Shown: positions 1 to 64,000, counted from the stretch's first letter. The stretch: DNA of 64,000 bases from the human T2T-CHM13v2.0 reference genome, Homo sapiens (GCA_009914755.4 CP086569.2:61472001-61536000); one strand, 5' to 3'. Program-made: numbers and translations. The notes: generated from the sequence alone by a model not told the origin.

Positions 1-3000
1 GGAATGGACTGGAAAGCAATGGACTGGAATGGAACTTTCTTGAATGGACTGGAATCAAACGGAATGGAATGCAATGCAATCAAATGGCATGGAATAAAAT
101 AGAATGAAAGAGAATCAAATGGAATTGAATCGAATGGAATCGAATGGATTGGAAAGGAATCGAATGGAATGGAAAGGAATTGACTCAAATGGAATGGACT
201 AGAATGGAATGGATTCGAATGGAAGGCAAAGGAATGGAATCTATTGGAATGGACTGTAATGGAATGGAATGGAAGGGATTGGAATGGACTCGAATGGAAT
301 GGACTGCAATAGAAAGGATTCGAATGGAATGAAAAAGAATTGAATGGAATAGAACAGAATGGAATCAAATCGAATGAAATGGAATGGAATAGACAGGAAT
401 GGAATGAAATGGAATGGAAAGGATTCGAATGGAATGCAATCGAATGGAATGGAATCGAACGGAATGGAATAAAATGGAAGAAAACTGGCAAGAAATGGAA
501 TCGAAATGAATGGAGTGTTATTGAACGGACTCAAAAAAATTGAATGTAATAGAATGGAGTGGAGTGGACTCGAATATAATGGACTGGAATGGAATGAAAT
601 CACATGGAATGGGAACGAATGGAATGGAATGGAAAGGAATGGAATCGAATGGAAAGGAATCGAATGGAAGGGAATGAAATTGAATCAACAGGAATGGAAA
701 GGAGTAGAATAGACGGTAATGGAATGGGCTCGAATAGAATGGACACGAATGCTCAAATTAAATGGACTCAAATGGAATGGAAACGAAAGGAATGTCATCG
801 AATGGAATTGAATCGATTGGAATGAAATCACATAGAATGGAGTGGAATCAAATGGAATTGAATCGAAAGGAAAGGAAGCGAATGGACTGAAATGAAATGG
901 AATGGAATTGAATGGAAATTAATGCAATGGAATAGAATGGAAAGAAATTTCACGGAATGGAATCAAACTGAATGGAATCAAATCAATGGAATATAATCAA
1001 ATGGAATGGAAAGGAATTGAATGGAGTAGATTGGATTGGATGGGATTGGAATGAAATGTACTGGAAAGGACTCGAATTTCAAGAAACGGAATGGAATGAA
1101 TTAGAACGGAATGGACTCGAATGGAATGGAATATCACGGAATGGCATCAAATGGAATGGCATCAATTGGAATGGAATCGAATGCAATGGAATGCTATGGA
1201 ATGGAATGGAATGCATTGGAATGGAATGTCCTCTAATGGAATGGAATCGAGTGGAATGGAATCGAATATAATGGAGTCTAATGAAATGGAATTGAAAGGA
1301 ATGGGATCCAATACAATGGAATATACTGGAATGTAATGTAATGAACTCGAATGTAATTGACTGGAATGGAATGTACATGAATGGAATGTAATCGAATGGA
1401 AAGTAATCCAATGGAATAGAATCTAATGCAATAAAATCGACTCAAGTAGAGTAGAATGTAATGGAATGGAGTGCAGTGCAATGGAATGGAATGGAATGGA
1501 ATGCAATGGAATGGAATGGAATGGAATGGAATGGAATGGGATGGAATGGTATGGGATGGATAGTAATGGACTGGAGTGAAATGGACTGGAAAGGAATGGA
1601 CTCAAATTGAAAGGGCTCGAAAGGAATGGAGTCAAATGGAATGGTCTGGAATGGAATGAACACGAATGTAATGCAATCCAATAGAATGGAATCGAATGGC
1701 ATGGAATATAAAGAAATGGAATCGAAGAGAATGGAAACAAATGGAATGGAATTGAATGGAATGGAATTGAATGGAATGGGAACGAATGGAGTGAAATTGT
1801 ATGCAGTAGAAGAGAATAGAATGGAATGCAAGCGAAAGGAAAGGAATGGATTGGAATGGAATGGAATTCATTGGAATGGAAGGGAATGTAGTGTAATGGA
1901 CAGGCCTGGAATAAAGTGGAATGCTACGGTCTCGAATGGAATAAAAATGTATGGAATGGAATGCAATGAAACGGAACCGAATGTCATAGAATGTAATGGA
2001 ATGCAAAAAAATGGAATCCAAAATCATTGACTGGAAAGGCTGGGTGTCGAAAGGAATTGACTCCAATGGAATGGAATCGAATGGAATGGAAGTGAATAGA
2101 CTCGAACTAAATCGAATGGAATGGAATTGATAGGAACGGAATGGAAAGGAATGCAATGATTTGGCATGGAATGGAATCGAATGGCATCGAATGGAATGGA
2201 ATGGAATGCAATGGAATGGAATGTATTAGAATGTAATGAACTTTAATGGAATGTACTCGAATGGATTCGACTGGAATGGAATGTTCTGGAAGTGAATGGA
2301 CTCCAATGGAATGGATTCGAAAGGAATGGAATCTAATGGAATGGAATTAAGTGGAAATGAATCAAATTGAATAGAACGGAATTGAATTGAATGGAATCGA
2401 AAGCAATGGAATCTAATGAAACGGAAAGGAAAGGAATGGAATGGATTGGAATGGAATGGGCTTGAATGGAATGGAATCGAAACGAATGGAATGGTATCGA
2501 ACTGAAGAGACTGGAATGGAATGCACTGGAATGGAAGGGAATGTAATGGAAGGTTCTCAAGAAAAATGGAATCGAAAGGAATGGAATTGAATGGAACGGA
2601 ATAGAGTCGAATGGAATTCAATGGAATGGAATGGACTAGAGTGAAATGGAATCGAACCACAAGGAATGGACAGGAATAGAATGGTCTCGAATTGAATGGA
2701 ATCGTATGGAATGGCATCAAACGGAATGGAATGGACAGCCACGGAATGGAATGCACTCGAATGCAATGGAGTCGACACTAACGGACTGGAATAGAATGGA
2801 CTCGACTGGTACGGACTCCAATGGAATGGAATCGAATGGAAGGGTATCGAACGGAATGGACTCGAAGGGAAAAGACTGCAATGGAAAGGTCTCGAATGGA
2901 ATGGAAATTAATGGAATGGAATGGAGTCGAATGAAATGGAGTCAAAAGGAATGGAATCGAATGGCAAGAAATCGAATGTAATGGAATCGCAAGGAATTGA

Positions 3001-3538
3001 AGTGAACGGAACGGAATGGAATGGAATCCAAAGGAATGGAATAGAATGGAATGGAATCGAATGGAAAGGACTCGAATGGAAATCACTCGAATAGAATGCA
3101 ATTTAATAAAATAGGATCAAATGTAATGGAATGGAATGGAAAGGAATCGAAACGAAAGGAATGGAGACAGATGGAATGGAATGGAACAGAGAGCAATGGT
3201 ATAGAATGGAATGGAATCATCTGGAATGGAATTGAATGGAATGGAATAATATGAAATGGAATGGAATGGAATGGAATGCCCTTGAATTAAATGGACTGGA
3301 ATGGAATGGACTCGAACAGAGTGTAATGGAAAGTGTTGAAATAGAATGGAATGGACTCGTTTGGAATGGTCTAGTATGCAATGCAATCGACTGGCAGGGA
3401 ATCAAAAGGAATGTAATCGAATGGATTGGACTGGAATGCAATGGACTCGAATAGATTGGAAACGGAAAGCAAAGGAATGGAATGGAATAGTATGGAATGG
3501 AATGGAAAGGAATGGAGTGGAATAGACTAGAGTGGAAT
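1..3538 (+). repeat. HOR unit 1 (3538 bp)
   Basis: Anchor ggaatggact(g/c)gaaagcaatgga at position 1; next anchor at 3539. Confidence 0.85.
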
Positions 3539-6500
3539 GGAATGGACTGGAAAGCAATGGACTGGAATGGAACTTTCTTGAATGGACTGGAATCAAACGG
3601 AATGGAATGCAATGCAATCAAATGGCATGGAATAAAATAGAATGAAAGAGAATCAAATGGAATTGAATCGAATGGAATCGAATGGATTGGAAAGGAATAG
3701 AATGGAATGGAACGGAATTGACTCAAATGGAATGGACTAGAATGGAATGGATTCGAATGGAAGGCAAAGGAATGGAATCTATTGGAATGGACTGTAATGG
3801 AATGGAATGGAAGGGATTGGAATGGACTCGAATGGAATGGACTGCAATAGAAAGGATTCGAATGGAATGAAAAAGAATTGAATGGAATAGAACAGAATGG
3901 AATCAAATCGAATGAAATGGAATGGAATAGAAAGGAATGGAATGAAATGAAATGGAAAGGATTCGAATGGAATGCAATCGAATGGAATGTAATCGAATGG
4001 AATGGAATCGAACGGAATGGAATAAAATGGAAGAAAACTGGCAAGAAATGGAGTCGAAATGAATGGAGTGTTATGGAACGGACTCAAAAGGAATTGAATG
4101 TAATAGAATGGAGTGGAGTGGACTCGAATATAATGGACTGGAATTGAATGAAATCACATGGAATGGGAACGAATGGAATGGAATGGAAAGGAATGGAATG
4201 GAATGGAAAGGAATCGAATGGAAGGGAATGAAATTGAATCAACAGGAATGGAAGGGAGTAGAATAGACGGTAATGGAATGGACTCGAATAGAATGGACAC
4301 GAATGCTCAAATTGAATGGACTCGAATGGAATGGAAACGAAAGGAATGTCATCGAATGGAATTGAATCGATTGGAATGAAATCACATAGAATGGAGTGGA
4401 ATCAAATGGAATTGAATCGAAAGGAAAGGAAGCGAATGGACTGAAATGAAATGGAATGGAATTGAATGGAAATTAATGCAATGGAATAGAATGGAACGAA
4501 ATTTCACGGAATGGAATCAAACTGAATGGAATCAAATCAATGGAATATAATCAAATGGAATGGAAAGGAATTGAATGGAGTAGATTGGATTGGATGGGAT
4601 TGGAATGAAATGTACTGGAAAGGACTCGAATTTCATGAAACGGAATGGAATGAATTAGAACGGAATGGACTCAAATGGAATGGAATGTCATGGAATGGCA
4701 TCTAATGGAATGGAATCGAATGCGATGGAATGCTATGGAATGGAATGGAATGCATTGGAATGGAATGTCCTCTAATGGAATGTATTCGAGTGGAATGGAA
4801 TCGAATATAATGGAGTCTAATGAAATGGAATTGAAAGGAATAGGACCGAATACAATGGAATATACTGGAATGTAATGTAATGAACTCGAATGTAATTGAC
4901 TGGAATGGAATGTACATGAATGGAATGTAATCGAATGGAAAGCAATCCAATGGAATAGAATCTAATGCAATAAAATCGACTCAAATAGAGTAGAATGTAA
5001 TGGAATGGAGTGCAGTGCAATGGAATGGAATGGAATGGAATGCAATGGAATGGAATGGAATGGAATGGAATGGTATGGAATGGATAGTAATGGACTGGAG
5101 TGAAATGGACTGGAAAAGAATGGACTCAAATTGAAAGGGCTCGAAAGGAATGGAGTCAAATGGAATGGTCTGGAATGGAATGAACACGAATGCAATGCAA
5201 TCCAATAGAATGGAATCGAATGGCATGGAATATAAAGAAATGGAATCGAAGAGAATGGAAACAAATGGAATGGAATTGAATGGAATGGAATTGAATGCAA
5301 TGGGAACGAATGGAGTGAAATTGTATGCAGTAGAAGAGAATAGAATGGAATGCAAGCGAAAGGAAAGGAATGGATTGGAATGGAATGGAATTCATTGGAA
5401 TGGAAGGGAATGTAGTGTAATGGACAGGCCTGGAATAAAGTGGAATGCTACGGTCTCGAATGGAATAAAAATGTATGGAATGGAATGCAATGAAACGGAA
5501 TCGAATGTCATAGAATGTAGTGGAATGCAAAAAAATGGACTCCAAAATCATTGACTGGAAAGGCTGGGTGTCGAAAGGAATTGACTCCAATGGAATGGAA
5601 TCGAATGGAATGGAAGTGAATAGAATCGAACTAAATCGAATGGAATGGAATTGATTGGAATGGAATTGTTAGGAACGGAATGGAAAGGAATGCAATGATT
5701 TGGCATGGAATGGAATCGAATGGCATCGAATGGATTGGAATGGAATGCAATGGAATGGAATGTATTAGAATGTAATGAACTTTAATGGAATGTACTCGAA
5801 TGGATTCGACTGGAATGGAATGTTCTCGAAGTGAATGGACTCCAATGGAATGGATTCGAAAGGAATGGAATCTAATGGAATGGAATTAAATGGAAATGAA
5901 TCAAATTGAATAGAACGGAATTGAATTGAATGGAATCGAATGCAATGGAATCTAATGAAACGGAAAGGAAAGGAATGGAATGGATTGGAATGGAATGGGC
6001 TGGAATGGAATGGAATCGAAACGAATGGAATGGAATCGAACTGAAGAGACTGGAATGGAATGCACTGGAATGGAAGGGAATGTAATGGAAGGTTCTCGAA
6101 AAAAATGGAATCGAAAGGAATGGAATTGAATGGAACGGAATAGAGTCGAATGGAATTCAATGGAATGGAATGGACTAGAGTGAAATGGAATCGAACCACA
6201 AGGAATGGACAGGAATAGAATGGTCTCGAATTGAATGGAATCGTATGGAATGGCATCAATCGGAATGGAATGGACAGCCACGGAATGGAATGGACAGCCA
6301 CGGAATGGAATGCACTCGAATGCAATGGAGTCGACACTAATGGACTGGAATAGAATGGACTCGACTGATACGGACTCCAATGGAATGGAATCGAATGGAA
6401 GGGAATCGAACGGAATGGACTCGAAGGGAAAAGACTGCAATGGAAAGGTCTCCAATGGAATGGAAATTAATGGAATGGAATGGAATCGAATGAAATGGAG

Positions 6501-7097
6501 TCAAAAGGAATGGAATCGAATGGCAAGAAATCGAATGTAATGGAATCGCAAGGAATTGATGTGAACGGAACGGAATGGAATGGAATCCAAAGGAATGGAA
6601 TAGAATGGAATGGAATCGAATGGAAAGGACTCGAATGGAAATCACTCGAATAGAATGCAATTTAATAAAATAGGATCAAATGTAATGGAATGGAATGGAA
6701 AGGAATCGAAACGAAAGGAATGGAGACAGATGGAATGGAATGGAACAGAGAGCAATGGTATAGAATGGAATGGAATCATCTGGAATGGAATTGAATGGAA
6801 TGGAATAATATGAAATGGAAAGGAATGGAATGGAATGCCCTTGAATTAAATGGACTGGAATGGAATGGACTCGAACAGAGTGGAATGGAAAGTGTTGAAA
6901 TAGAATGGAATGGACTCGTTTGGAATGGTCTAGTATGCAATGCAATCGACTGGCAGGGAATCAAAAGGAATGTAATAGAATGGATTGAACTGGAATGCAA
7001 TGGACTCGAATAGATTGGAAACGGAAAGCAAAGGAATGGAATGGAATAGTATGGAATGGAATGGAAAGGAATGGAGTGGAATAGACTAGAGTGGAAT
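3539..7097 (+). repeat. HOR unit 2 (3559 bp). Carries a 22-bp duplication ggaatggaatggacagccac (around 6265–6310).
   Basis: Anchor at 3539; next anchor at 7098. The extra length is explained by a tandem 22-bp duplication not present in unit 1. Confidence 0.85.
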
Positions 7098-10000
7098 GGA
7101 ATGGACTCGAAAGCAATGGAGTGGAATGGAACTTTCTTGAATGGACTGGAATCAAACGGAATGGAATGCAATGCAATCAAATGGCATGGAATAAAATAGA
7201 ATGAAAGAGAATCAAATGGAATTGAATCGAATGGAATCGAATGGATTGGAAAGGAATAGAATGGAATGGAATGGAATTGACTCAAATGGAATGGACTAGA
7301 ATGGAATGGATTCGAATGGAAGGCAAAGGAATGGAATCTATTGGAATGGACTGTAATGGAATGGAATGGAAGGGATTGGAATGGACTCGAATGGAATGGA
7401 GTGCAATAGAAAGGATTCGAATGGAAGGAAAAAGAATTGAATGGAATAGAACAGAATGGAATCAAATCGAATGAAATGGAATGGAATAGAAAGAAATGGA
7501 ATGAAATGGAATGGAAAGGATTCGAATGGAATGCAATCAAATGGAATGGAATCGAACGGAATGGAATAAAATGGAAGAAAACTGGCAAGAAATGGAGTCG
7601 AAATGAATGGAGTGTTATGGAACCGACTCAAAAGGAATTGAATGTAATAGAATGGAGTGGAGTGGACTCGAATATAATGGACTGGAATGGAATGAAATCA
7701 CATGGAATGGGAACGAATGGAATGGAATGGAAAGGAATGGAATCCAATGGAAAGGAATCGAATGGAAGGGAATGAAATTGAATCAACAGGAATGGAAGGG
7801 AGTAGAATAGACGGTAATGGAATGGACTCGAATAGAATGGACACGAATGCTCAAATTGAATGGACTCGAATGGAATGGAAACGAAAGGAATGTCATCGAA
7901 TGGAATTGAATCGATTGGAATGAAATCACATAGAATGGAGTGGAATCAAATGGAATTGAATCGAAAGGAAAGGAAGCGAATGGACTGAAATGAAATGGAA
8001 TGGAATTGAATGGAAAGTAATGCAATGGAATAGAATGGAACGAAATTTCACGGAATGGAATCAAACTGAATGGAATCAAATCAATGGAATCAAATCAAAT
8101 GGAATGGAAAGGAATTGAATGGAGTAGATTGGATTGGATGGGATTGGAATGAAATGTACTGGAAAGGACTCGAATTTCATGAAACGGAATGGAGTGAATT
8201 AGAACGGAATGGACTCGAATGGAATGGAATGTCATGGAATGGCATCAAATGGAATGGAATCGAATGCGATGGAATGCTATGGAATGGAATGGAATGCATT
8301 GGAATGGAATGTCCTCTAATGGAATGTATTCGAGTGGAATGGAATCGAATATAATGGAGTCTAATGAAATGGAATTGAAAGGAATGGGACCGAATACAAT
8401 GGAATATACTGGAATGTAATGTAATGAACTCGAATGTAATTGACTGGAATGGAATGTACATGAATGGAATGTAATCGAATGGAAAGCAATCCAATGGAAT
8501 AGAATCTAATGCAATAAAATCGACTCAAATAGAGTAGAATGTAATGGAATGGAGTGCAGTGCAATGGAATGGAATGGAATGGAATGCAATGGAATGGAAT
8601 GGAATGGAATGGAATGGGATGGAATGGTGTGGAATGGATAGTAATGGACTGGAGTGAAATGGACTGGAAAAGAATGGACTCAAATTGAAAGGGCTCGAAA
8701 GGAATGGAGTCAAATGGAATGGTCTGGAATGGAATGAACACGAATGTAATGCAATCCAATAGAATGGAATCGAATGGCATGGAATATAAAGAAATGGAAT
8801 CGAAGAGATTGGAAACAAATGGAATGGAATTGAATGGAATGGAATTGAATGGAATGGGAACGAATGGAGTGAAATTGTATGCAGTAGAAGAGAATAGAAT
8901 GGAATGCAAGCGAAAGGAAAGGAATGGATTGGAATGGAATGGAATTCATTGGAATGGAAGGGAATGTAGTGTAATGGACAGGCCTGGAATAAAGTGGAAT
9001 GCTACGGTCTCGAATGGAATAAAAATGTATGGAATGGAATGCAATGAAACGGAATCGAATGTCATAGAATGTAATGCAATGCAAAAAAATGGACTCCAAA
9101 ATCATTGACTGGAAAGGCTGGGTGTCGAAAGGAATTGACTCCAATGGAATGGAATCGAATGGAATGGAAGTGAATAGAATGGAACTAAATCGAATGGAAT
9201 GGAATTGATAGGAACGGAATGGAAAGGAATGCAATGATTTGGCATGGAATGGAATCGAATGGCATCGAATGGAATGGAATGGAATGCAATGGAATGGAAT
9301 GTATTAGAATGTAATGAACTTTAATGGAATGTACTCGAATGGATTCGACTGGAATGGAATGTTCTCGAAGTGAATGGACTCCAATGGAATGGATTCGAAA
9401 GGAATGGAATCTAATTGAATGGAATTAAATGGAAATGAATCAAATTGAATAGAACGGAATTGAATTGAATGGAATCGAATGCAATGGAATCTAATGAAAC
9501 GGAAAGGAAAGGAATGGAATGGATTGGAATGGAATGGGCTGGAATGGAATGGAATCGAAACGAATGGAATGGAATCGAACTGAAGAGACTGGAATGGAAT
9601 GCACTGGAATGGAAGGGAATATAATGGAAGGTTCTCGAAAAAAATGGAATCGAAAGGAATGGAATTGAATGGAACGGAATAGAGTCGAATGGAATTCAAT
9701 GGAATGGAATGGACTAGAGTGAAATGGAATCGAACCACAAGGAATTGACAGGAATAGAATGGTCTCGAATTGAATGGAATCATATGGAATGGCATCAAAC
9801 GGAATGGAATGGACAGCCACGGAATGGAATGGACACCCACGGAATGGAATGCACTCGAATGCAATGGAGTCGACACTAATGGACTGGAATAGAATGGACT
9901 CGACTGGTACGGACTCCAATGGAATGGAATCGAATGGAAGGGAATCGAACGGAATGGACTCGAAGGGAAAAGACTGCAATGGAAAGGTCTCCAATGGAAT

Positions 10001-10636
10001 GGAAATTAATGGAATGGAATGGAATCGAATGAAATGGAGTCAAAAGGAATGGAATCGAATGGCAAGAAATCGAATGTAATGGAATCGCAAGGAATTGATG
10101 TGAACGGAACGGAATGGAATGGAATCCAAAGGAATGGAATAGAATGGAATGGAATCGAATGGAAAGGACTCGAATGGAAATCACTCGAATAGAATGCAAT
10201 TTAATAAAATAGGATCAAATGTAATGGAATGGAATGGAAAGGAATCGAAACGAAAGGAATGGAGACAGATGGAATGGAATGGAACAGAGAGCAATGGTAT
10301 AGAATGGAATGGAATCATCTGGAATGGAATTGAATGGAATGGAATAATATGAAATGGAATGGAATGGAATGGAATGCCCTTGAATTAAATGGACTGGAAT
10401 GGAATGGACTCGAACAGAGTGGAATGGAAAGTGTTGAAATAGAATGGAATGGACTCGTTTGGAATGGTCTAGTATGCAATGCAATCGACTGGCAGGGAAT
10501 CAAAAGGAATGTAATCGAATGGATTGGACTGGAATGCAATGGACTCGAATAGATTGGAAACGGAAAGCAAAGGAATGGAATGGAATAGTATGGAATGGAA
10601 TGGAAAGGAATGGAGTGGAATAGACTAGAGTGGAAT
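7098..10636 (+). repeat. HOR unit 3 (3539 bp)
   Basis: Anchor at 7098; next at 10637. Shares the 22-bp duplication (around 9805–9845; second copy has ggacacccac). Confidence 0.85.
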
Positions 10637-13600: not shown

Positions 13601-14190
13601 GAATGGAATCGAATGGCAAGAAATCGAATGTAATGGAATCGCAAGGAATTGATGTGAACGGAACGGAATGGAATGGAATCCAAAGGAATGGAATAGAATG
13701 GAATGGAATCGAATGGAAAGGACTCGAATGGAAATCACTCGAATAGAATGCAATTTAATAAAATAGGATCAAATGTAATGGAATGGAATGGAAAGGAATC
13801 GAAACGAAAGGAATGGAGACAGATGGAATGGAATGGAACAGAGAGCAATGGTATAGAATGGAATGGAATCATCTGGAATGGAATTGAATGGAATGGAATA
13901 ATATGAAATGGAAAGGAATGGAATGGAATGCCCTTGAATTAAATGGACTGGAATGGAATGGACTCGAACAGAGTGGAATGGAAAGTGTTGAAATAGAATG
14001 GAATGGACTCGTTTGGAATGGTCTAGTATGCAATGCAATCGACTGGCAGGGAATCAAAAGGAATGTAATCGAATGGATTGGACTGGAATGCAATGGACTC
14101 GAATAGATTGGAAACGGAAAGCAAAGGAATGGAATGGAATAGTATGGAATGGAATGGAAAGGAATGGAGTGGAATAGACTAGAGTGGAAT
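10637..14190 (+). repeat. HOR unit 4 (3554 bp)
   Basis: Anchor at 10637; next at 14191. Shares the 22-bp duplication (around 13355–13395). Confidence 0.85.
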
Positions 14191-46400: not shown

Positions 46401-46951
46401 GGAATTGATGTGAACGGAACAGAATGGAATGGAATCCAAAGGAATGGAATAGAATGGAATGGAATCGAATGGAAAGGACTCGAATGGAAATCACTCGAAT
46501 AGAATGCAATTTAATAAAATAGGATCAAATGTAATGGAATGGAATGGAAAGGAATCGAAACGAAAGGAATGGAGACAGATGGAATGGAATGGAACAGAGA
46601 GCAATGGTATAGAATGGAATGGAATCATGTGGAAGGGAATTGAATGGAATGGAATAATATGAAATGGAATGGAATGGAATGGAATGGAATGCCCTTGAAT
46701 TAAATGGACTGGAAGGGAATGGACTCGAACAGAGTGGAATGGAAAGTGTTGAGATAGAATGGAATGGACTCCTTTGGAATGGTGTAGTATGCAATGCAAT
46801 CGACTGGCAGGGAATCAAAAGGAATGTAATGGAATGGATTGGACTGGAATGCAATGGACTCGAATAGATTGGAAACGGAATGCAAAGGAATGGAATGGAA
46901 TAGTATGGAATGGAATGGAAAGGAATGGAGTGGAATAGACTAGAGTGGAAT
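43404..46951 (+). repeat. HOR unit 13 (3548 bp)
   Basis: Anchor at 43404; next at 46952. Confidence 0.85.
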
Positions 46952-49900: not shown

Positions 49901-50514
49901 AAAGGAATGGAATCGAATGGCAAGAAATCGAATGTAATGGAATGGCAAGGAATTGATGTGAACGGAACGGAATGGAATGGAATCCAAAGGAATGGAATAG
50001 AATGGAATGGAATCGAATGGAAAGGACTCGAATGGAAATCACTCGAATAGAATGCAATTTAATAAAATAGGATCAAATGGAATGGATTGGAATGGAAAGG
50101 AATCGAAACGAAAGGAATGGAGACAGATGGAATGGAATGGAACAGAGAGCAATGGTATAGAATGGAATGGAATCATCTGGAATGGAATTGAATGGAATGG
50201 AATAATATGAAATGGAATGGAATGGAATGGAATGGAATGGAATGGAATGGAATGCCCTTGAATTAAATGGACTGGAATGGAATGGCCTCGAACAGAGTGG
50301 AATGGAAAGTGTTGAGACAGAATGCAATGGACTCCTTCGGAATGGTGTAGTATGCAATGCAATCGACTGGCAGGGAATCAAATGGAATGTAATCGAATGG
50401 ATTGGACTGGAATGCAATGGACTCGAATAGATTGGAAACGGAATGCAAAGGAATGGAATGGAATAGTATGGAATGGAATGGAAAGGAATGGAGTGGAATA
50501 GACTAGAGTGGAAT
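46952..50514 (+). repeat. HOR unit 14 (3563 bp). Contains an expanded pure pentamer run at ~50206–50256.
   Basis: Anchor at 46952 (variant ggaatgaact); next at 50515. Confidence 0.8.
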
Positions 50515-53500: not shown

Positions 53501-54047
53501 TGGAATCGCAAGGAATTGATGTGAATGGAGCGGAATGGAATGGAATCCAAAGGAATGGAATAGAATGGAAAGGACTCGAATGGAAATCACTCGAATAGAA
53601 TGCAATTTAATAAAATAGGATCAAATGTAATGGAATGGAATGGAAAGGAATCGAAACGAAAGGAATGGAGACAGATGGAATGGAATGGAACAGAGAGCAA
53701 TGGTATAGAATGGAATGGAATCATCTGGAATGGAATTGAATGGAATGGAATAATATGAAATGGAATGGAATGGAATGGAATGGAATGCCCTTGAATTAAA
53801 TGGACTGGAATGGAATGGACTCGAACAGAGTGGAATGGAAAGTGTTGAGATAGAATGGAATGGACTCCTTTGGAATGGTGTAGTATGCAATGCAATCGAC
53901 TGGCAGGGAATCAAAAGGAATGTAATGGAATGGATTGGACTGGAATGCAATGGACTCGAATAGATTGGAAACGGAATGCAAAGGAATGGAATGGAATAGT
54001 ATGGAATGGAATGGAAAGGAATGGAGTGGAATAGACTAGAGTGGAAT
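50515..54047 (+). repeat. HOR unit 15 (3533 bp). Has a 15-bp deletion at ~53521–53580.
   Basis: Anchor at 50515; next at ~54048 (variant ggagtggact). Confidence 0.8.
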
Positions 54048-57000
54048 GGAGTGGACTGGAAAGCAATGGACTGGAATGGAACTTTCTTGAGTGGACTGGA
54101 ATCAAACGGAATAGAATGCAATGCAATCAAATGGCATGGAATAAAATAGAATGAAAGAGAATCAAATGGAATTGAATCGAATGGAATCGAATGGATTGGA
54201 AAGGAATAGAATGGAATGGAATGGAATTGACTCAGATGGAATGGATTCGAATGGAATGGATTCGAATGGAAGGCAAAGGAATGGAATCTATTGGAATGGA
54301 CTGTAATGGAATGGAAGGGAATGGAATGGAAAGGATTGGAATGGACTCGAATGGAATGGACTGCAATAGAAAGGATTCGAATGGAATGAAAAAGAATTGA
54401 ATGGAATAGAACAGAATGGAATCAAATCGAATGAAATGGAATGGAATAGAAAGGAATGGAATGAAATGGAATGGAAAGGATTCGAATGGAATGCAATCGA
54501 ATGGAATGGAATCGAACGGAATGGAATAAAATGGAAGAAAACTGGCAAGAAATGGAATCGAAATGAATGGAGTGTTATGGAACGGACTCAAAAGGAATTG
54601 AATGTAATAGAATGGAGTGGAGTGGACTCGAATATAATGGACTGGAATGGAATGAAATCACATGGAATGGGAACGAATGGAATGGAATGGAAAGGAATGG
54701 AATCGAATGGAAAGGAATCGAATGGAAGGGAATGAAATTGAATCAACAGGAATGGAAGGGAATAGAATAGACGGTAATGGAATGGACTCGAATAGAATGG
54801 ACACGAATGCTGAAATTGAATGGACTCGAATGGAACGGAAACGAAAGGAATGTCATCGAATGGAATTGAATCGATTGGAATGAAATCGCATAGAATGGAG
54901 TGGAATCAAATGGAATTGAATCGAAAGGAAAGGGAGCGAATGGACTGAAATGAAATGGAATGGAATTGAATGGAAAGTAATGCAGTGGAATAGAATGGAA
55001 CGAAATTTCACGGAATGGAATCAAACTGAATGGAATCAAATCAATGGAATCTAATCAAATGGAATGGAAAGGAATTGAATGGAGTAGATTGGATTGGATG
55101 GGATTGGAATGAAATGTACTGGAAAGGACTCGAATTTCATGAAACGGAATGGAATGAATTGGAACGGAATGGACTCGAATGGAATGGAATGTCATGGAAT
55201 GGCATCAAATGGAATGGCATCAAATGGAATGGAATCGAATGCAATGGAATGCTATGGAATGGAATGGAATGCATTGGAATGGAATGTCCTCTAATGGAAT
55301 GGATTCGAGTGGAATGGAATCGAATATAATGGTGTCGAATGAAATGGAATTGAAAAGAATGGGATCGAATACAATGGAATATACTGGAATGTAATGTAAT
55401 GAACTCGAATGTAACTGACTGGAATGGAATTTACATGAATGGAATGTAATCGAATGGAAAGTAATCCAATGGAATAGAATCTAATGCAATAAAATCGACT
55501 CAGATAGAGTAGAATGTAATGGAATGGAGTGCAGTGCAATGGAATGGAATGGAATGGAATGCAATGGAATGGAATGGAATGGAATGGAATGGGATGGAAT
55601 GGTATGGAATGGATAGTAATGGACTGGAGTGAAATGGACTGGAAAGGTATGGACTCAAATTGAAAGGGCTCGAAAGGAATGGAGTCAAATGGAATGGTCT
55701 GGAATGGAATGAACACGAATGTAATGCAATCCAATAGAATGGAATCGAATGGCATGGAATATAAAGAAATGGAATCGAAGAGAATGGAAACAAATGGAAT
55801 GGAAGTGAATGGAATGGAATTGAATGGAATGGGAACGAATGGAGTGAAATTGTATGCAGTAGAAGAGAATAGAATGGAATGCAAGCGAAAGGAAAGGAAT
55901 GGATTGGAATGGAATGGAATTCATTGGAATGGAAGGGAATGTAGTTTAATGGACAGGCCTGGAATAAAGTGGAATGCTACGGTCTCGAATGGAATAAAAA
56001 TGTATGGAATGGAATGCAATGAAACGGAATCGAATGTCATAGAATGTAATGGAATGCAAAAAAATGGAATCCAAAATCATTGACTGGAAAGGCTGGGTGT
56101 CGAAAGGAATTGACTCCAATGGAATGGAATCGAATGGAATGGAAGTGAATAGAATCGAACTAAATCGAATGGAATGGAATTGATAGGAACGGAATGGAAA
56201 GGAATGCAATGATTTGGCATGGAATGGAATCGAATGGCATCGAATGGAATGGAATGGAATGCAATGGAATGGAATGTATTAGAATGTAATGAACTTTAAT
56301 GGAATGTACTCGAATGGATTCGACTGGAATGGAATGTTCTGGAAGTGAATGGACTCCAATGGAATGGATTCAAAAGGAATGGAATCGTACGGAATGGAAA
56401 CTAATGGAATGGAATTAAATGGAAATGAATCAAATTGAATAGCACGGAATAGAATTGAATGGAATCGAATGCAATGGAATCTAATGAAACGGAAAGGAAA
56501 GGAATGCAATGGAATGGAATGGGCTGGAATGGAACGGAATCGAAACGAATGGAATGGAATCGAACTGAAGAGACTGGAATGGAATCCACTGGAATGGAAG
56601 GGAGTGTAATGGAAGGTTCTCGAAAAAAATGGAATCGAATGGAATGGAATTGAATGGAACGGAATAGAGTCGAATGGAATTGAATGGAATGGAATGGACT
56701 AGAGTGAAATGGAATCGAACCACAAGGAATGGACAGGAATAGAATGGTCTCGAATTGAATGGAATCGTATGGAATGGCATCAAACGGAATGGAATGGACA
56801 GCCACGGAATGGAATGCACTCGAATGCAATGGAGTCGAAACTAAAGGACTGGAATAGAATGGACTCGACTGGTACGGACTCCAATGGAATGGAATCGAAT
56901 GGAAGGGAATCGAACGGAATGGACTCGAAGGGATAAGATTGCAATGGAAAGGTCTCGAATGGAGTGGAAATTAATGGAATGGAATGGAATCGAATGAAAT

Positions 57001-57606
57001 GGAGTCAAAAGGAATGGAATCGAATGGCAAGAAATCGAATGTAATGGAATCGCAAGGAATTGATGTGAACGGAACGGAATGGAATGGAATCCAAAGGAAT
57101 GGAATAGAATGGAATGGAATCGAATGGAAAGGACTCGAATGGAAATCACTCGAATAGAATGCAATTTAATAAAATAGGATCAAATGTAATGGAATGGAAT
57201 GGAAAGGAATCGAAACGAAAGGAATGGAGACAGATGGAATGGAATGGAACAGAGAGCAATGGTATAGAATGGAATGGAATCATCTGGAATGGAATTGAAT
57301 GGAATGGAATAATATGAAATGGAATGGAATGGAATGGAATGGAATGCCCTTGAATTAAATGGACTGGAATGGACTGGACTCGAACAGAGTGGAATGGAAA
57401 GTGTTGAGATAGAATGGAATGGACTCCTTTGGAATGGTCTAGTATGCAATGCAATCGACTGGCAGGGAATCAAAAGGAATGTAATGGAATGGATTGGACT
57501 GGAATGCAATGGACTCGAATAGATTGGAAACGGAATACAAAGGAATGGAATGGAATAGTATGGAATGGAATGGAAAGGAATGGAGTGGAATAGACTAGAG
57601 TGGAAT
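54048..57606 (+). repeat. HOR unit 16 (3559 bp). Has a small local rearrangement at ~54236–54330.
   Basis: Anchor at ~54048; next at 57607. Confidence 0.8.
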
Positions 57607-60600
57607 GGAATGGACTGGAAAGCAATGGACTGGAATGGAACTTTCTTGAATGGACTGTAATCAAACGGAATGGAATGCAATGCAATCAAATGGCATGGAA
57701 TAAAATAGAATGAAAGAGAATCAAATGGAATTGAATCGAATGGAATCGAATGGATTGGAAAGGAATAGAATGGAATGGAATGGAATTGACTCAAATGGAA
57801 TGGACTAGAATGGAATGGATTCGAATGGAAGGCAAAGGAATGGAATCTATTGGAATGGACTGTAATGGAATGGAACGGAAGGGATTGGAATGGACTCGAA
57901 TGGAATGGACTGCAATAGAAAGGATTCGAATGGAATGAAAAAGAATTGAATGGAATAGAACAGAATGGAATCAAATCGAATGAAATGGAATGGAAGAGAA
58001 AGGAATGGAATGAAATGGAATGGAAAGGATTCGAATGGAATGCAATCGAATGGAATGCAATCGAATGGAATGGAATCGAACGGAATGGAATAAAATGGAA
58101 GAAAACTGGCAAGATATGGAATCGAAATGAATGGAGTGTTATGGAACGGACTCAAAAGGAATTGAATGTAATAGAATGGAGTGGAGTGGACTCGAATATA
58201 ATGGACTGGAATGGAATGAAATCACATGGAATGGGAACGAATGGAATGGAATGGAAAGGAATGGAATCGAATGGAAAGGAATCGAATGGAAGGGAATGAA
58301 ATTGAATCAAAAGGAATGGAAGGGAATAGAATAGACGGTAATGGAATGGACTCGAATAGAATGGACACGAATGCTCAAATTGAATGGACTCGAATGGAAT
58401 GGAAACGAAAGGAATGTCATCGAATGGAATTGAATCGATTGGAATGAAATCGCATAGAATGGAGTGGAATCAAATGGAATTGAATCGAAAGGAAAGGAAG
58501 CGAATGGACTGAAATGAAATGGAATGGAATTGAATGGAAAGTAATGCAATGGAATAGAATGGAACGAAATTTCACGGAATGGAATCAAACTGAATGGAAT
58601 CAAATCAATGGAATCAAATCAAATGGAATGGAAAGGAATTGAATGGAGTAGTTTGGATTGGATGGGATTGGAATGAAATGTACTGGAAAGGACTCGAATT
58701 TCATGAAACGGAATGGAATGAATTGGAACGGAATGCACTCGAATGGAATGGAATGTCATGGAATGGCATCAAATGGAATGGCATCAAATGGAATGGAATC
58801 GAATGCAATGGAATGCTATGGAATGGAATGGAATGCATTGGAATGGAATGTCCTCTAATGGAATGGATTCGAGTGGAATGGAATCGAATATAATGGAGTC
58901 GAATGAAATGGAATTGAAAGGAATGGGATCGAATACAATGGAATATACTGGAATGTAATGTAATGAACTCGAATGTAATTGACTGGAATGGAATGTACAT
59001 GAATGGAATGTAATCGAATGGAAAGTAATCCAATGGAATAGAATCTAATGCAATAAAATCGACTCAGATAGAGTAGAATGTAATGGAATGGAGTGCAGTG
59101 CAATGGAATGGAATGGAATGGAATGCAATGGAATGGAATGGAATGGAATGGAATGGAATGGAATGGGATGGGATGGAATGGTATGGAATGGATAGTAATG
59201 GACTGGAGTGAAATGGACTGGAAAGGAATGGACTCAAATTGAAAGGGCTCGAAAGGAATGGAGTCAAATGGAATGGTCTGGAATGGAATGAACACGAATG
59301 TAATGCAATCCAATAGAATGGAATCGAATGGCATGGAATATAAAGAAATGGAATCGAAGAGAATGGAAACAAATGGAATGGAATTGAATGGAATGCGAAC
59401 GAATGGAGTGAAATTGTATACAGTAGAAGGGAATAGAATGGAATGCAAGTGAAAGGAAAGGAATGGATTGGAATGGAATGGAATTCATTGGAATGGAAGG
59501 GAATGTAGTGTAATGGACAGGCCTGGAATAAAGTGGAATGCTACGGTCTCGAATGGAATAAAAATGTATGGAATGGAATGCAATGAAACGGAATCGAATG
59601 TCATAGAATGTAATGGAATGCAAAAAAATGGAATCCAAAATCATTGACTGGAAAGGCTGGGTGTCGAAAGGAATTGACTCCAATGGAATGGAATCGAATG
59701 GAATGGAAGTGAATAGAATCGAACTAAATCGAATGGAATGGAATTGATAGGAACGGAATGGAAAGGAATGCAATGATTTGGCATGGAATGGAATCGAATG
59801 GCATCGAATGGAATGGAATGGAATGCAATGGAATGGAATGTATTAGAATGTAATGAACTTTAATGGAATGTACTCGAATGGATTCGACTGGAATGGAATG
59901 TTCTGGAAGTGAATGGACTCCAATGGAATGGATTCAAAAGGAATGGAATCGTACGGAATGGAATCTAATGGAATGGAATTAAATGGAAATGAATCAAATT
60001 GAATAGCACGGAATTGAATTGAATGGAATGGAATGCAATGGAATCTAATGAAACGGAAAGGAAAGGAATGGAATGGAATGGAATGGGCTGGAATGGAAAG
60101 GAATCGAAACGAATGGAATGGAATCGAACTGAAGAGACTGGAATGGAATGCACTGGAATGGAAGGGAGTGTAATGGAAGGTTCTCGAAAAAAATGGAATC
60201 GAATGGAATGGAATTGAATGGAACGGAATAGAGTCGAATGGAATTGAATGGAATGGAATGGACTAGAGTGAAATGGAATCGAACCACAAGGAATGGACAG
60301 GAATAGAATGGTCTCGAATTGAATGGAATCGTATGGAATGGCATCAAACGGAATGGAATGGACAGCCACGGAATGGAATGCACTCGAATGCAATGGAGTC
60401 GAAACTAATGGACTGGAATAGAATGGACTCGACTGGTACGGACTCCAATGGAATGGAATCGAATGGAAGGGAATCGATCGGAATGGACTCGAAGGGAAAA
60501 GACTGCAATGTAAAGGTCTCGAATGGAATGGAAATTAATGGAATGGAATGGAATCGAATGAAATGGAGTCAAAAGGAATGGAATCAAATGGCAAGAAATC

Positions 60601-61180
60601 GAATGTAATGGAATCGCAAGGAATTGATGTGAACGGAACGGAATGGAATGGAATCCAAAGGAATGGAATAGAATGGAATGGAATCGAATGGAAAGGACTC
60701 GAATGGAAATCACTCGAATAGAATGCAATTTAATAAAATAGGATGAAATGTAATGGAATGGAATGGAAAGGAATCGAAACGAAAGGAATGGAGACAGATG
60801 GAATGGAATGAAACAGAGAGCAATGGTATAGAATGGAATGGAATCATCTGGAATGGAATTGAATGGAATGGAATAATATGAAATGGAATGGAATGGAATG
60901 GAATGGAATGCCCTTGAATTAAATGGACTGGAATGGAATGGACTCGAACAGAGTGGAATGGAAAGTGTTGAGATAGAATGGGATGGACTCCTTTGGAATG
61001 GTGTAGTATGCAATGCAATCGACTGGCAGGGAATCAAAAGGAATGTAATCGAATGGATTGGACTGGAATGCAATGGACTCGAATAGATTGGAAACGGAAT
61101 GCAAAGGAATGGAATGGAATAGTATGGAATGGAATGGAAAGGAATGGAGTGGAATAGACTAGAGTGGAATGGAATGGACT
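57607..61180 (+). repeat. HOR unit 17 (3574 bp)
   Basis: Anchor at 57607; next at 61181. Confidence 0.85.
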
Positions 61181-64000
61181 GGAAAGCAATGGACTGGAAT
61201 GGAACTTTCTTGAATGGACTGGAATCAAACGGAATGGAATGCAATGCAATCAAATGGCATGGAATAAAATAGAATGAAAGAGAATCAAATGGAATTGAAT
61301 CGAATGGAATCGAATGGATTGGAAAGGATTAGAATGGAATGGAATGGAATTGACTCAAATGGAATGGACTAGAATGGAATGGATTCGAATGGAAGGCAAA
61401 GGAATGGAATCTATTGGAATGGACTGTAATGGAATGGAATGGAAGGGATTGGAATGGACTCGAATGGAATGGACTGCAATAGAAAGGATTCGAATGGAAT
61501 GAAAAAGAATTGAATGGAATAGAACAGAATGGAATCAAATCGAATGAAATGGAATGGAATAGAAAGGAATGGAATGAAATGGAATGGAAAGGATTCGAAT
61601 GGAATGCAATCGAATGGAATGGAATCGAACGGAATGGAATAAAATGGAAGAAAACTGGCAAGAAATGGAATCGAAATGAACGGAGTGTTATGGAACGGAC
61701 TCAAAAGGAATTGAATATAATAGAATGGAGTGGAGTGGACTCGAATATAATGGACTGGAATGGAATGAAATCACATGGAATGGGAACGAATGGAATGGAA
61801 TGGAAAGGAATGGAATCGAATGGAAAGGAATCGAATGGAAGGGAATGAAATTGAATCAACAGGAATGGAAGGGAATAGAATAGACGGTAATGGAATGGAC
61901 TCGAATAGAATGGACACGAATGCTCAAATTGAATGGACTCGAATGGAATGGAAACGAAAGGAATGTCATCGAATGGAATTGAATCGATTGGAATGAAATC
62001 GCATAGAATGGAGTGGAATCAAATGGAATTGAATCGAAAGGAAAGGAAGCGAATGGACTGAAATGAAATGGAATGGAATTGAATGGAAAGTAATGCAATG
62101 GAATAGAATGGAACGAAATTTCACGGAATGGAATCAAACTGAATGGAATCAAATCAATGGAATCAAATCAAATGGAATGGAAAGGAATTGAATGGAGTAG
62201 ATTGGATTGGATGGGATTGGAATGAAATGTACTGGAAAGGACTCGAATTTCATGAAACGGAATGGAATGAATTGGAACGGAATGGACTCGAATGGAATGG
62301 AATGTCATGGAATGGCATCAAATGGAATGGCATCAAATGGAATGGAATCGAATGCAATGGAATGCTATGGAATGGAATGGAATGCATTGGAATGGAATGT
62401 CCTCTAATGGAATGGATTCGAGTGGAATGGAATCGAATATAATGGAGTCGAATGAAATGGAATTGAAAGGAATGGGATCGAATACAATGGAATATACTGG
62501 AATGAAATGTAATGAACTCGAATGTAATTGACTGGAATGGAATGTACATGAATGGAATGTAATCGAATGGAAAGTAATCCAATGGAATAGAATCTAATGC
62601 AATAAAATCGACTCAGATAGAGTAGAATGTAATGGAATGGAGTGCAGTGCAATGGAATGGAATGGAATGGAATGCGATGGAATGGAATGGAATGGAATGG
62701 AATGGAATGGAATGGGATGGGATGGAATGGTATGGAATGGATAGTAATGGACTGGAGTGAAATGGACTGGAAAGGAATGGACTCAAATTGAAAGGGCTCG
62801 AAAGGAATGGAGTCAAATGGAATGGTCTGGAATGGAATGAACACGAATGTAATGCAATCCAATAGAATGGAATCGAATGGCATGGAATATAAAGAAATGG
62901 AATCGAAAAGAATGGAAACAAATGGAATGGAATTGAATGGAATGGAATTGAATGGATTGGGAACGAATGGAGTGAAATTGTATGCAGTAGAAGGGAATAG
63001 AATGGAATGCAAGCGAAAGGAAAGGAATGGATTGGAATGGAATGGAATTCATTGGAATGGAAGGGAATGTAGTGTAATGGACAGGCCTGGAATAAAGTGG
63101 AATGCTACGGTCTCGAATGGAGTAAAATTGTATGGAATGGAATGCAATGAAATGGAATCGAATGTCATAGAATGTAATGGAATGCAAAAAAATGGAATCC
63201 AAAATCATTGACTGGAAAGGCTGGGTGTCGAAAGGAATTGACTCCAATGGAATGGAATCGAATGGAATGGAAGTGAATAGAATCGAACTAAATCGAATGG
63301 AATGGAATTGATAGGAACGGAATGGAAAGGAATGCAATGATTTGGCATGGAATGGAATCGAATGGCATCGAATGGGATGGAATGGAATGCAATGGAATGG
63401 AATGTATTAGAATGTAATGAACTTTAATGGAATGTACTCGAATGGATTCGACTGGAATGGAATGTTCTGGAAGTGAATGGACTCCAATGGAATGGATTCA
63501 AAAGGAATGGAATCGTACGGAATGGAATCCAATGGAATGGAATTAAATGGAAATGAATCAAATTGAATAGCACGGAATTGAATTGAATGGAATCGAATGC
63601 AATGGAATCTAATGAAACGGAAAGGAAAGGAATAGAATGGAATGGAATGGGTTGGAATGGAAAGGAATCGAAACGAATGGAATGGAATCGAACTGAAGAG
63701 ACTGGAATGGAATGCACTGGAATGGAAGGGAGTGTAATGGAAGGTTCTCGAAAAAAATGGAATCGAATGGAATGGAATTGAATGGAACGGAATAGAGTCG
63801 AATGGAATTGAATGGAATGGAATGGACTAGAGTGAAATGGAATCGAACCACAAGGAATGGACAGGAATAGAATGGTCTCGAATTGAATGGAATCGTATGG
63901 AATGGCATCAAACGGAATGGAATGGACAGCCACGGAATGGAATGCACTCGAATGCAATGGAGTCGAAACTAATGGACTGGAATAGAATGGACTCGACTGG
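61181..64000 (+). repeat. HOR unit 18, partial (2820 bp, truncated by the window end).
   Basis: Anchor at 61181. The sequence continues in register with earlier units to the window end. Confidence 0.85.

What the first reader, a model, noticed from the sequence alone, without database searches (positions are those of the whole stretch)
1..64000. Approximately 3.54 kb higher-order repeat with one HaeIII site per unit; candidate DYZ1 (Yq12) array.
There are 18 in-register HOR copies with periods of 3515–3574 bp (one is 4494 bp). GGCC occurs essentially once per unit in the motif ggacaggcctggaataaag (e.g. ~1903, ~5430, ~8980). A HaeIII digest would therefore give a ~3.5 kb ladder. That is exactly how the male-specific DYZ1 3.56 kb repeat was originally defined, and DYZ1 is known to be built from TTCCA/GGAAT pentamers. 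This supports an origin from Yq12 heterochromatin. Other HSat3 subfamilies on acrocentric chromosomes, chr1, chr9 or chr16 have different HOR lengths, but I cannot exclude them without a database comparison.
Basis: partly seen in the sequence, partly recalled or inferred. Interest (0 to 1): 0.6.

Follow-up and report, generated by a model that had tools for sequence, protein, structure and literature searches.

The report
Human Y-chromosome DYZ1 satellite array

Summary
Observation confirmed. The window is uninterrupted GGAAT-type pentameric satellite. It holds 17 full higher-order units (3515-3578 bp), one 905-bp truncated unit and two partial end units. Full units are 97.2-99.7% identical to each other.

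HaeIII (GGCC) cuts once per unit inside GGACAGGCCTGGAATAAAG. The digest gives 15 fragments of 3515-3564 bp. It also gives one 4483-bp fragment (lost site plus truncated unit) and one unit split into 1434+2128 bp by a private new site.

Interpretation supported by four tests:
- Window units are 98.0-99.4% identical to a published 3564-bp DYZ1 HaeIII unit. One aligns with no gaps and 22 mismatches.
- Published DYZ1 primers map once per unit at or within 15 bp of the published coordinates.
- The diagnostic 24-mer of the Y subfamily HSat3A6 occurs 22 times exactly. The diagnostic 24-mers of the other 13 HSat2/3 subfamilies never occur.
- GC (38.7%) and CpG density (1 per 35.5 bp) match published DYZ1 values.

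Physical location on Yq12 could not be tested, because no human reference assembly is available in these tools.

Variation between units looks like unequal exchange, pentamer-register slippage and gene conversion. This is already known biology and of low interest.

The parts
1..64000 (-). Continuous DYZ1 (HSat3A6) satellite array segment. The published TTCCA orientation is on the - strand and GGAAT is on the + strand. It contains 17 full units, 1 truncated unit and 2 partial end units. There are no inversions, no interruptions and no DYZ2.
   Evidence: TRF period 5 over 1-63991. ATTCC count is 0 on the + strand. Lag-5 self-match never falls below 0.50 in any 200-bp window. Units are 97.2-99.7% identical.
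1..1904 (-). Partial DYZ1 unit at the window start, running up to the first HaeIII cut.
   Evidence: 97.3-98.5% identical to full units.
1905..5428 (-). HaeIII unit, 3524 bp.
   Evidence: 98.52% identical to published DYZ1 MZT1a.
5429..8982 (-). HaeIII unit, 3554 bp.
   Evidence: 98.66% identical to published DYZ1.
8983..12536 (-). HaeIII unit, 3554 bp.
   Evidence: 98.58%.
12537..16090 (-). HaeIII unit, 3554 bp.
   Evidence: 98.43%.
16091..19610 (-). HaeIII unit, 3520 bp.
   Evidence: 98.24%.
19611..23125 (-). HaeIII unit, 3515 bp. It is 99.66% identical to the next unit, the most recent duplication in the window.
   Evidence: 98.01% to published DYZ1. Pairwise matrix.
23126..26655 (-). HaeIII unit, 3530 bp.
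   Evidence: 97.99%.
26656..30193 (-). HaeIII unit, 3538 bp. This is the last unit of the U1-U8 variant block.
   Evidence: 97.98%. Block-diagnostic columns.
30194..33727 (-). HaeIII unit, 3534 bp. It is a mosaic between the two variant types. 23 of its 42 differences from the consensus lie in 30197-30912, and it has three extra EcoRI sites.
   Evidence: 98.50%. Substitution list and EcoRI sites. Mosaic columns.
33728..37271 (-). HaeIII unit, 3544 bp.
   Evidence: 99.01%.
37272..41754 (-). 4483-bp HaeIII fragment, made of a 3578-bp unit plus the 905-bp truncated unit. They are joined in the digest because the intervening site is mutated.
   Evidence: The motif copy at 40843 reads GGACAGACCTGG....
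40848..40851 (.). Lost HaeIII site (GGCC>GACC).
   Evidence: 1-mismatch motif copy at 40843-40861.
40843..41747 (-). Truncated DYZ1 unit. Unit positions 1-367 are joined to 3012-3564, a 2.64-kb internal deletion. The junction lies inside the 16-nt repeat GACTGGAATGGAATGT, which is present at both breakpoints.
   Evidence: Window-by-window best matches. Gapped alignment blocks and breakpoint sequences. The pieces are 98.1-98.6% identical to unit U18.
41755..45303 (-). HaeIII unit, 3549 bp.
   Evidence: 99.10%.
45304..48851 (-). HaeIII unit, 3548 bp.
   Evidence: 99.13%.
48852..52413 (-). Unit of 3562 bp, split into 1434 + 2128 bp by an extra HaeIII site.
   Evidence: 98.82%. Digest.
50284..50287 (.). 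Extra GGCC created by a private A>C change (GGACT>GGCCT) found in this unit only.
   Evidence: Alignment column across all 17 units.
52414..55957 (-). HaeIII unit, 3544 bp.
   Evidence: 98.92%.
55958..59521 (-). HaeIII unit, exactly 3564 bp.
   Evidence: 99.18%.
59522..63085 (-). HaeIII unit, exactly 3564 bp. It aligns gaplessly with the published DYZ1 unit with 22 mismatches.
   Evidence: 99.38%, 0 gaps.
63086..64000 (-). Partial DYZ1 unit at the window end.
   Evidence: 99.1% identical to U18.
1898..30186 (-). Local variant block U1-U8. These units share a 15-bp deletion. Each has a second EcoRI site and a SalI site that are absent from U10-U18.

Best explanation
The window is an internal piece of one block of DYZ1 (HSat3 subfamily A6). 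[quoted passage not shown]

**Shown here**
- The sequence is a diverged (TTCCA)n array organised into ~3.55-kb units that match published DYZ1.
- Neighbouring units form locally homogenised sub-blocks.
- Length differences between units are almost all multiples of 5 bp.
- One unit carries a 2.64-kb deletion between two copies of a 16-nt internal repeat.

**Inferred**
- The array grows, shrinks and homogenises by unequal sister-chromatid exchange, pentamer-register replication slippage and intra-array gene conversion. These are the mechanisms proposed for Yq12 in the T2T-Y and pedigree papers.
- The array has no coding function.
- It is packaged as CpG-methylated constitutive heterochromatin.
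- Its one-stranded run of about 44 GGAATG motifs per kb makes it a potential platform or sink for TEAD-family and other HSat3-binding factors.
- Low-level testis and stress-induced lncRNAs have been reported from DYZ1.
For: **Identity as DYZ1**
- Period-5 GGAAT array across the whole window.
- One HaeIII site per ~3.55-kb unit.
- 98.0-99.4% identity to the published 3564-bp DYZ1 unit, including one gapless alignment.
- DYZ1 primers C, D, E and F match exactly once per unit. Primers A, B and G match with 1-2 mismatches. B, E, G and A sit at the published coordinates; C, D and F are offset by 15 bp.
- The HSat3A6 diagnostic 24-mer occurs 22 times; the other 13 subfamily 24-mers occur 0 times.
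- GC is 38.7% and CpG density is 1 per 35.5 bp, against published 38% and 1 per 35 bp.
- TTCCA occurs 218-231 times per unit, against 235 in the published clone counted the same way. The paper's own Table 1 gives 184-235.
- The literature states that DYZ1/HSat3A6 is Y-specific, has a ~3.5-3.6 kb unit and has units >98% identical.

**Mechanism**
- Indels are 5, 10, 15, 20 or 40 bp.
- Identity is structured into blocks, with U6/U7 at 99.66%.
- The truncated unit has a microhomology junction.
- The transition/transversion ratio among unit variants is 0.73-0.75, and CpG transitions are 3 times more frequent per site than non-CpG transitions. This fits the published gene-conversion-driven hypermutability and methylation of Yq12.
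- GGAATG occurs 2847 times on the + strand and never on the - strand. TEAD binding to HSat3 is published.
Against: - No direct mapping to a human assembly was possible, so Y linkage is inherited from the literature.
- Altemose 2014 Table 1 lists a minor chromosome 7 localisation for HSat3A6 alongside Y.
- No DYZ2 (HSat1B) is present in the window to show the characteristic Yq12 alternation. This is expected, because DYZ1 blocks are 50 kb to 3.6 Mb long.
- The modal HaeIII fragment reported for 6 of 7 complete Y assemblies is 3569 bp. No fragment of that length occurs here; the longest regular fragments are 3564 bp.
- TEAD binding, methylation and transcription were not tested for this sequence. 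The published TEAD imaging was done mainly in XX cells.
Confidence: 0.95

Rival explanations
1. An autosomal or acrocentric HSat3 array (subfamilies A1-A5 or B1-B5, for example on 9q12, 15p, chr1 or chr20) that happens to have a ~3.5-kb higher-order period.
For: It would share the GGAAT pentamer base. Some other-subfamily 24-mers match at 2 mismatches (HSat3A2 38, B3 34, A4 26, A1 17, B5 12), as expected from common ancestry.
Against: There are no exact matches to any of the 13 other subfamily-diagnostic 24-mers, against 22 for HSat3A6. The units are 98-99.4% identical to a DYZ1 unit amplified with DYZ1 primers from male DNA, with primer sites at the published coordinates.
Confidence: 0.02
2. 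The DYZ1-derived 2.7-kb repeat array (or the 3.1-kb/DYZ18 arrays) at the Yq11/Yq12 transition, and not DYZ1 proper.
For: Hallast et al. report a 2.7-kb unit of which 77% is 97% identical to DYZ1, so DYZ1-like sequence does exist outside the DYZ1 blocks.
Against: The unit length here is 3515-3578 bp, not 2.7 or 3.1 kb. The units are collinear with the full 3564-bp DYZ1 unit, one of them gaplessly, so no DYZ18-derived part is present.
Confidence: 0.01
3. Genuine DYZ1 sequence that is not at its normal place. Either it is Yq12 heterochromatin translocated to an autosome or acrocentric short arm, or it is a DYZ1-like array in a non-human ape genome.
For: Sequence alone cannot give location. Y-autosome translocations of Yq heterochromatin in healthy carriers are mentioned in the literature.
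Against: The prior is low. Identity to human DYZ1 clones (up to 99.4%) is as high as identity between units inside the window, which leaves no room for species-level divergence. The review cited describes the Yq heterochromatin as evolving after human speciation.
Confidence: 0.02

Closest known systems
DYZ1 / HSat3A6 (human Yq12 3.56-kb HaeIII repeat; published clone MZT1a, GenBank KF941192 as listed in PMC3925983)
   Same: - Pentamer base and strand asymmetry.
- One HaeIII site per unit, with two units exactly 3564 bp long.
- 98.0-99.4% sequence identity and matching primer-site coordinates.
- The HSat3A6 diagnostic 24-mer is present.
- 38.7% GC and 1 CpG per 35.5 bp.
- Units are about 98% identical to each other.
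   Different: - Only normal within-family variation was seen: unit lengths of 3515-3578 bp from indels that are multiples of 5 bp.
- No 3569-bp fragments occur, although that is the modal size in 6 of 7 complete Y assemblies.
- There is a local block (U1-U8) with an extra EcoRI site and a SalI site.
- There is one truncated unit.
Other HSat3 subfamilies (for example HSat3B5 on 9q12, HSat3A5 on chr15, HSat3A4 on the acrocentrics)
   Same: They derive from the same (GGAAT)n/(CATTC)n ancestor, have dense GGAATG/TEAD motifs and form constitutive heterochromatin.
   Different: Their diagnostic 24-mers are absent from the window. By published description they have different or no higher-order period.
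DYZ18-region 2.7-kb repeat (Yq11/Yq12 boundary)
   Same: It is partly derived from DYZ1 (77% of its unit is 97% identical).
   Different: It has a 2.7-kb unit with a DYZ18-derived part. The window has full-length 3.5-kb DYZ1 units.

Membership tests
DYZ1 / HSat3A6 | Built from diverged tandem TTCCA/GGAAT pentamers, all in one orientation. | tested here: met
   TRF gives period 5 with consensus GGAAT over 1-63991. There are 4213 GGAAT and 0 ATTCC on the + strand.
DYZ1 / HSat3A6 | Higher-order unit of ~3.56 kb defined by one HaeIII site per unit. | tested here: met
   15 fragments are 3515-3564 bp long, and two are exactly 3564 bp. The exceptions are explained by one lost site, one gained site and one truncated unit.
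DYZ1 / HSat3A6 | Full-length collinearity and high identity with a published DYZ1 unit. | tested here: met
   97.98-99.38% identity to the 3564-bp MZT1a clone. Unit 59522-63085 aligns without gaps.
DYZ1 / HSat3A6 | Published DYZ1 PCR primer sites present at the published positions. | tested here: met
   Primers C, D, E and F match exactly in 15-17 units. A, B and G match with 1-2 mismatches. B (763-782), E (861-880), G (2638-2656) and A (16-35 upstream) sit at the published coordinates. C, F and D are offset by 15 bp. Primer H as printed lacks one G and matches nowhere.
DYZ1 / HSat3A6 | HSat3A6 subfamily-specific 24-mer present and those of other subfamilies absent. | tested here: met
   TCGTTTCGATTCCTTTCCATTCCA has 22 exact hits. 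The 13 other diagnostic 24-mers have 0 exact hits. Only the single most common 24-mer per subfamily was available.
DYZ1 / HSat3A6 | Composition of about 38% GC and about 1 CpG per 35 bp. | tested here: met
   38.7% GC and 1804 CpG in 64 kb, which is 1 per 35.5 bp, against the published values.
DYZ1 / HSat3A6 | Male-specific, physically located in Yq12. | not testable with these tools
   No human reference assembly or sex-stratified read data is available here. Y-specificity is taken from the literature. Altemose 2014 also lists a minor chr7 signal.
DYZ1 / HSat3A6 | Blocks alternate with DYZ2 (HSat1B, 2.4-kb AT-rich/Alu-containing unit). | tested here: inconclusive
   No DYZ2 or any non-pentameric sequence is present in the 64 kb. 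Published DYZ1 blocks are 50 kb to 3.6 Mb long, so a window wholly inside one block is expected.
Other HSat2/HSat3 subfamilies (A1-A5, B1-B5, HSat2A1/A2/B) | Presence of the subfamily-specific 24-mer. | tested here: not met
   0 exact matches for all 13.
DYZ18-region 2.7-kb / 3.1-kb repeats | Unit length of 2.7 or 3.1 kb with a DYZ18-derived portion. | tested here: not met
   Units are 3515-3578 bp long and collinear with full-length DYZ1.

The most novel reading that the evidence does not exclude
The most novel reading the evidence leaves open has two forms. In the first, this DYZ1 block is not at Yq12, for example Yq heterochromatin moved to an autosome or acrocentric short arm. In the second, the U1-U8 block (extra EcoRI and SalI sites, shared 15-bp deletion), together with the absence of the modal 3569-bp unit, marks a haplogroup-specific or peripheral DYZ1 variant block that has not been described. 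Either would be a modest addition to a well-described family.
Probability: 0.03. Interest if true: 0.25.

Novelty: already known. Interest (0 to 1): 0.07.

Why it matters
The finding matters little beyond correct annotation. DYZ1 has been described as a male-specific repeat since 1976, and it has been mapped base by base in T2T-Y and in dozens of further Y assemblies. Recognising it has three practical uses:

- It prevents its stop-poor "ORFs" from being mistaken for genes.
- It identifies the window as human Y heterochromatin.
- It flags DYZ1 as a common contaminant. Six "bacterial" contigs in the public genome collection turned out to be pure DYZ1.

The pattern of variation within the window is a clean small-scale illustration of how Yq12 evolves. 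It shows indels that are multiples of 5 bp, block homogenisation, a microhomology deletion and a low transition/transversion ratio.

Tried and rejected
- **Classic sex-typing primers.** I searched the literature for a primer pair recalled from memory (TCCACTTTATTCCAGGCCTGTCC / TTGAATGGAATGGGAACGAATGG). No paper in the library holds them. They do match the window 154 bp apart, with one site pair per unit. I do not use this as evidence, because the sequences are unverified.
- **Key papers not held.** The original 1986 DYZ1 sequence paper (PubMed 3774538) and the paper I looked up as PMC9233505 are not in the library.
- **Megablast filter.** Megablast with a 93% identity filter missed the truncated unit, because alignments extend through the pentamer background and fall below the filter. 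This was resolved with window-wise matching and a gapped alignment.
- **Whole-window autocorrelation.** It gave only weak peaks at 3544-3564 bp (0.51-0.52), because unit lengths vary.
- **Rfam.** No family reached its gathering score.
- **ORFs.** There are 92 mechanical ORFs of >=120 aa, up to 310 aa and mostly on the - strand with TTG or GTG starts. I rejected them as genes. The TTCCA strand is poor in stop codons, and ORF lengths differ between otherwise 98%-identical units.
- **HSF1-type motifs.** GAAnnTTC is sparse, 72 in 64 kb, so a heat-shock element array is not a feature that stands out here.
- **Not run.** Protein-homology, structure-prediction and phage/plasmid/E. coli searches were not run, because they cannot bear on a human satellite.


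Full report
**1. Checking the observation**

The window is 40.5% A, 30.2% G, 20.8% T and 8.4% C. Tandem Repeats Finder describes it as a single period-5 array with consensus GGAAT from 1 to 63991, at 64% match. Exact GGAAT occurs 4213 times on the + strand. Its complement ATTCC never occurs there, so the whole window is one uninterrupted, single-orientation pentameric satellite. No 200-bp window loses the 5-bp periodicity.

GGCC occurs 19 times. Eighteen of these sites lie inside the 19-mer GGACAGGCCTGGAATAAAG. That motif has 19 copies at up to 2 mismatches, against none in shuffled sequence. The number of GGCC sites is what composition alone predicts (18.4 expected). It is their in-register spacing that is non-random.

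The in-silico HaeIII digest gives 15 internal fragments of 3515-3564 bp, one of 4483 bp, and one unit split into 1434 + 2128 bp.

The 17 full units are 97.2-99.7% identical pairwise, mean 98.0%.
- The long interval is a 3578-bp unit followed by a 905-bp truncated unit. The site between them is mutated to GACC.
- One extra site at 50284 is a private A>C change.
- The copy count is 17 full units, 1 truncated unit and 2 partial end units.

**2. What it is**

I tested the DYZ1 hypothesis against published, labelled sequence, not against memory.

*Published unit.* Additional file 1 of PMC3925983 prints a 3564-bp DYZ1 HaeIII unit, clone MZT1a (the paper lists GenBank KF941192). It was amplified with DYZ1 primers from male DNA. 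The reverse complements of the window's HaeIII units are 97.98-99.38% identical to it. Unit 59522-63085 is exactly 3564 bp and aligns with no gaps and 22 mismatches. The window units are thus as close to this independent DYZ1 clone as they are to each other.

*Primers.* The eight DYZ1 primers in Table 5 of that paper map as follows:
- C, D, E and F match exactly, once per unit.
- A, B and G match with 1-2 mismatches.
- H as printed lacks a G and matches nowhere.
- Measured from the HaeIII cut, B (763-782), E (861-880), G (2638-2656) and A (16-35 upstream) fall on the published coordinates.
- C, F and D are offset by one 15-bp indel.

*Subfamily marker.* Table 1 of Altemose et al. [quoted passage not shown] The HSat3A6 (chromosome Y) 24-mer occurs 22 times exactly. 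None of the other 13 occurs exactly.

*Composition.* Hallast et al. (10.1101/2022.12.01.518658) give DYZ1 as about 3.5 kb, 38% GC and 1 CpG per 35 bp. The window has 38.7% GC and 1 CpG per 35.5 bp.

*Pentamer count.* TTCCA occurs 218-231 times per unit, against 235 in the published clone counted the same way. The paper's own table gives 184-235.

*Literature.* The T2T-Y paper describes DYZ1 as a Y-specific HSat3 subfamily of ~3.6-kb nested repeats with units mostly >98% identical. A 2025 preprint likewise calls HSat3A6 the chromosome Y-specific subfamily.

**3. Related sequences elsewhere**

I scanned the bacterial/archaeal genome collection for a 32-mer spanning the HaeIII motif. It found six contigs, labelled Actinomadura, Streptomyces (two), Streptosporangium, Senimuribacter and a Polyangiaceae MAG. 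Each is DYZ1 over its entire length, 98.6-99.5% identical to window unit U18. These are human male DNA contaminants, as the T2T-Y paper predicted for HSat3. They also show that independent DYZ1 copies from other people differ from this window no more than its own units differ from each other.

**4. Anatomy and how it evolves**

- **Indels.** Length differences between units are almost all 5, 10, 15, 20 or 40 bp. This indicates gain and loss of whole pentamers. Self-similarity is higher at lag 15 than at lag 5 (0.686 against 0.639), which matches the frequent 15-bp indels.
- **Blocks.** Identity is structured in blocks. U1-U4, U5-U8 and U10-U18 are more similar within than between, and U6/U7 are 99.66% identical.
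- **U1-U8 variant.** These units share a 15-bp deletion. Each carries a second EcoRI site and a SalI site that U10-U18 lack.
- **U9 mosaic.** U9 is a mosaic of the two types. More than half of its differences from the consensus are concentrated in its first 730 bp.
- **Truncated unit.** It joins unit position 367 to position 3012, inside a 16-nt sequence (GACTGGAATGGAATGT) present at both sites. This is a microhomology-mediated or out-of-register exchange deletion.
- **Substitution pattern.** Among variant sites the transition/transversion ratio is only 0.73-0.75, even away from indels. CpG transitions are about 3 times more frequent per site than other transitions.

These features fit published conclusions:
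- Yq12 evolves by unequal exchange, with sister-chromatid exchanges seen in Strand-seq.
- Units are homogenised locally.
- Yq12 is about 30 times more mutable than euchromatin.
- A substantial share of new variants come from intra-array gene conversion.
- DYZ1 is methylated.

The mechanisms themselves are inferred from these patterns. They were not observed here.

**5. Function**

Nothing in the window looks like a gene. Rfam finds nothing. The 92 long "ORFs" are artefacts of a stop-poor repeat and are not conserved in length between units.

The + strand carries 2847 GGAATG motifs (44.5 per kb) and the - strand none. GGAATG is the TEAD core motif, and TEAD1 and other factors have been shown to bind HSat3 arrays. 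A role as a transcription-factor platform or sink is therefore plausible but untested for DYZ1.

Testis-specific and radiation-induced lncRNAs from DYZ1 have been reported. The review evidence is that Yq12 heterochromatin is largely dispensable for male development.

My best account is a non-coding, constitutively heterochromatic satellite. Its structure is maintained by recombination-based turnover and not by selection on sequence.

**6. Rivals**

- **Autosomal or acrocentric HSat3.** Contradicted by the diagnostic 24-mers and by the identity to DYZ1 clones.
- **The DYZ1-derived 2.7-kb array at the Yq11/Yq12 boundary.** Excluded by unit length and full-length collinearity.
- **A translocated or non-human copy.** Sequence alone cannot exclude this. 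The prior is low, and there is no divergence beyond within-array levels.

Two caveats remain. Altemose 2014 lists a minor chromosome 7 signal for HSat3A6. The modal 3569-bp HaeIII fragment of most complete Y assemblies is absent here.

**7. Verdict**

The feature is a textbook DYZ1 array. It is already known and of low interest. The one decisive test I could not run is direct mapping to T2T-Y against the CHM13 autosomes.

Noticed in passing
L001-L006 (genome contigs: BMRF01000076.1, CALPCJ010000043.1, NZ_JBFAJD010000109.1, BNBB01000077.1, BMTN01000077.1, CAYVXY010000078.1): Six contigs deposited as bacterial genome sequence are pure human DYZ1 over their whole length. They are labelled Actinomadura, Senimuribacter, Streptomyces (two), Streptosporangium and a Polyangiaceae MAG, and are 98.6-99.5% identical to window unit U18. 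This is human male DNA contamination.
   Followed up: partly
window 40843-41747: A 905-bp truncated DYZ1 unit. Unit positions 1-367 are joined to 3012-3564 within a shared 16-nt GACTGGAATGGAATGT. The motif copy at its start carries the lost HaeIII site at 40848.
   Followed up: yes
window 30187-30912 (start of unit U9): 23 of U9's 42 differences from the consensus lie in its first ~730 bp (about 3.2% against 0.7% elsewhere). They create three extra EcoRI sites. U9 is also a mosaic of the markers that distinguish U1-U8 from U10-U18. This may be a gene-conversion patch or an old exchange junction.
   Followed up: partly
window 1898-30186 versus 33721-63078: There are two local DYZ1 variant types. 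Units U1-U8 each have a second EcoRI site about 750-765 bp from the first, a SalI site and a shared 15-bp deletion. U10-U18 lack all three.
   Followed up: partly
whole window (17-unit alignment): The transition/transversion ratio among unit variants is only 0.73-0.75, where about 2 is usual for human point mutation. CpG transitions are 3 times more frequent per site than non-CpG transitions, and CpG observed/expected is 1.1. This is consistent with the published gene-conversion-driven mutation of Yq12, but it is not explained in detail here.
   Followed up: partly
whole window: Self-similarity is higher at lag 15 (0.686) and lag 30 (0.663) than at lag 5 (0.639), and 15-bp indels are the commonest length variant. 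This suggests a three-pentamer sub-periodicity.
   Followed up: no
whole window, - strand: Mechanical ORFs reach 310 aa (for example 50073-51005 and 57180-58112) because the TTCCA strand is poor in stop codons. Their lengths differ between near-identical units, so they are not genes.
   Followed up: partly
whole window: No HaeIII fragment of 3569 bp occurs, although that is the modal DYZ1 size reported for 6 of 7 complete Y assemblies. The two longest regular units here are exactly 3564 bp, the length of the published DYZ1 clone used for comparison.
   Followed up: no
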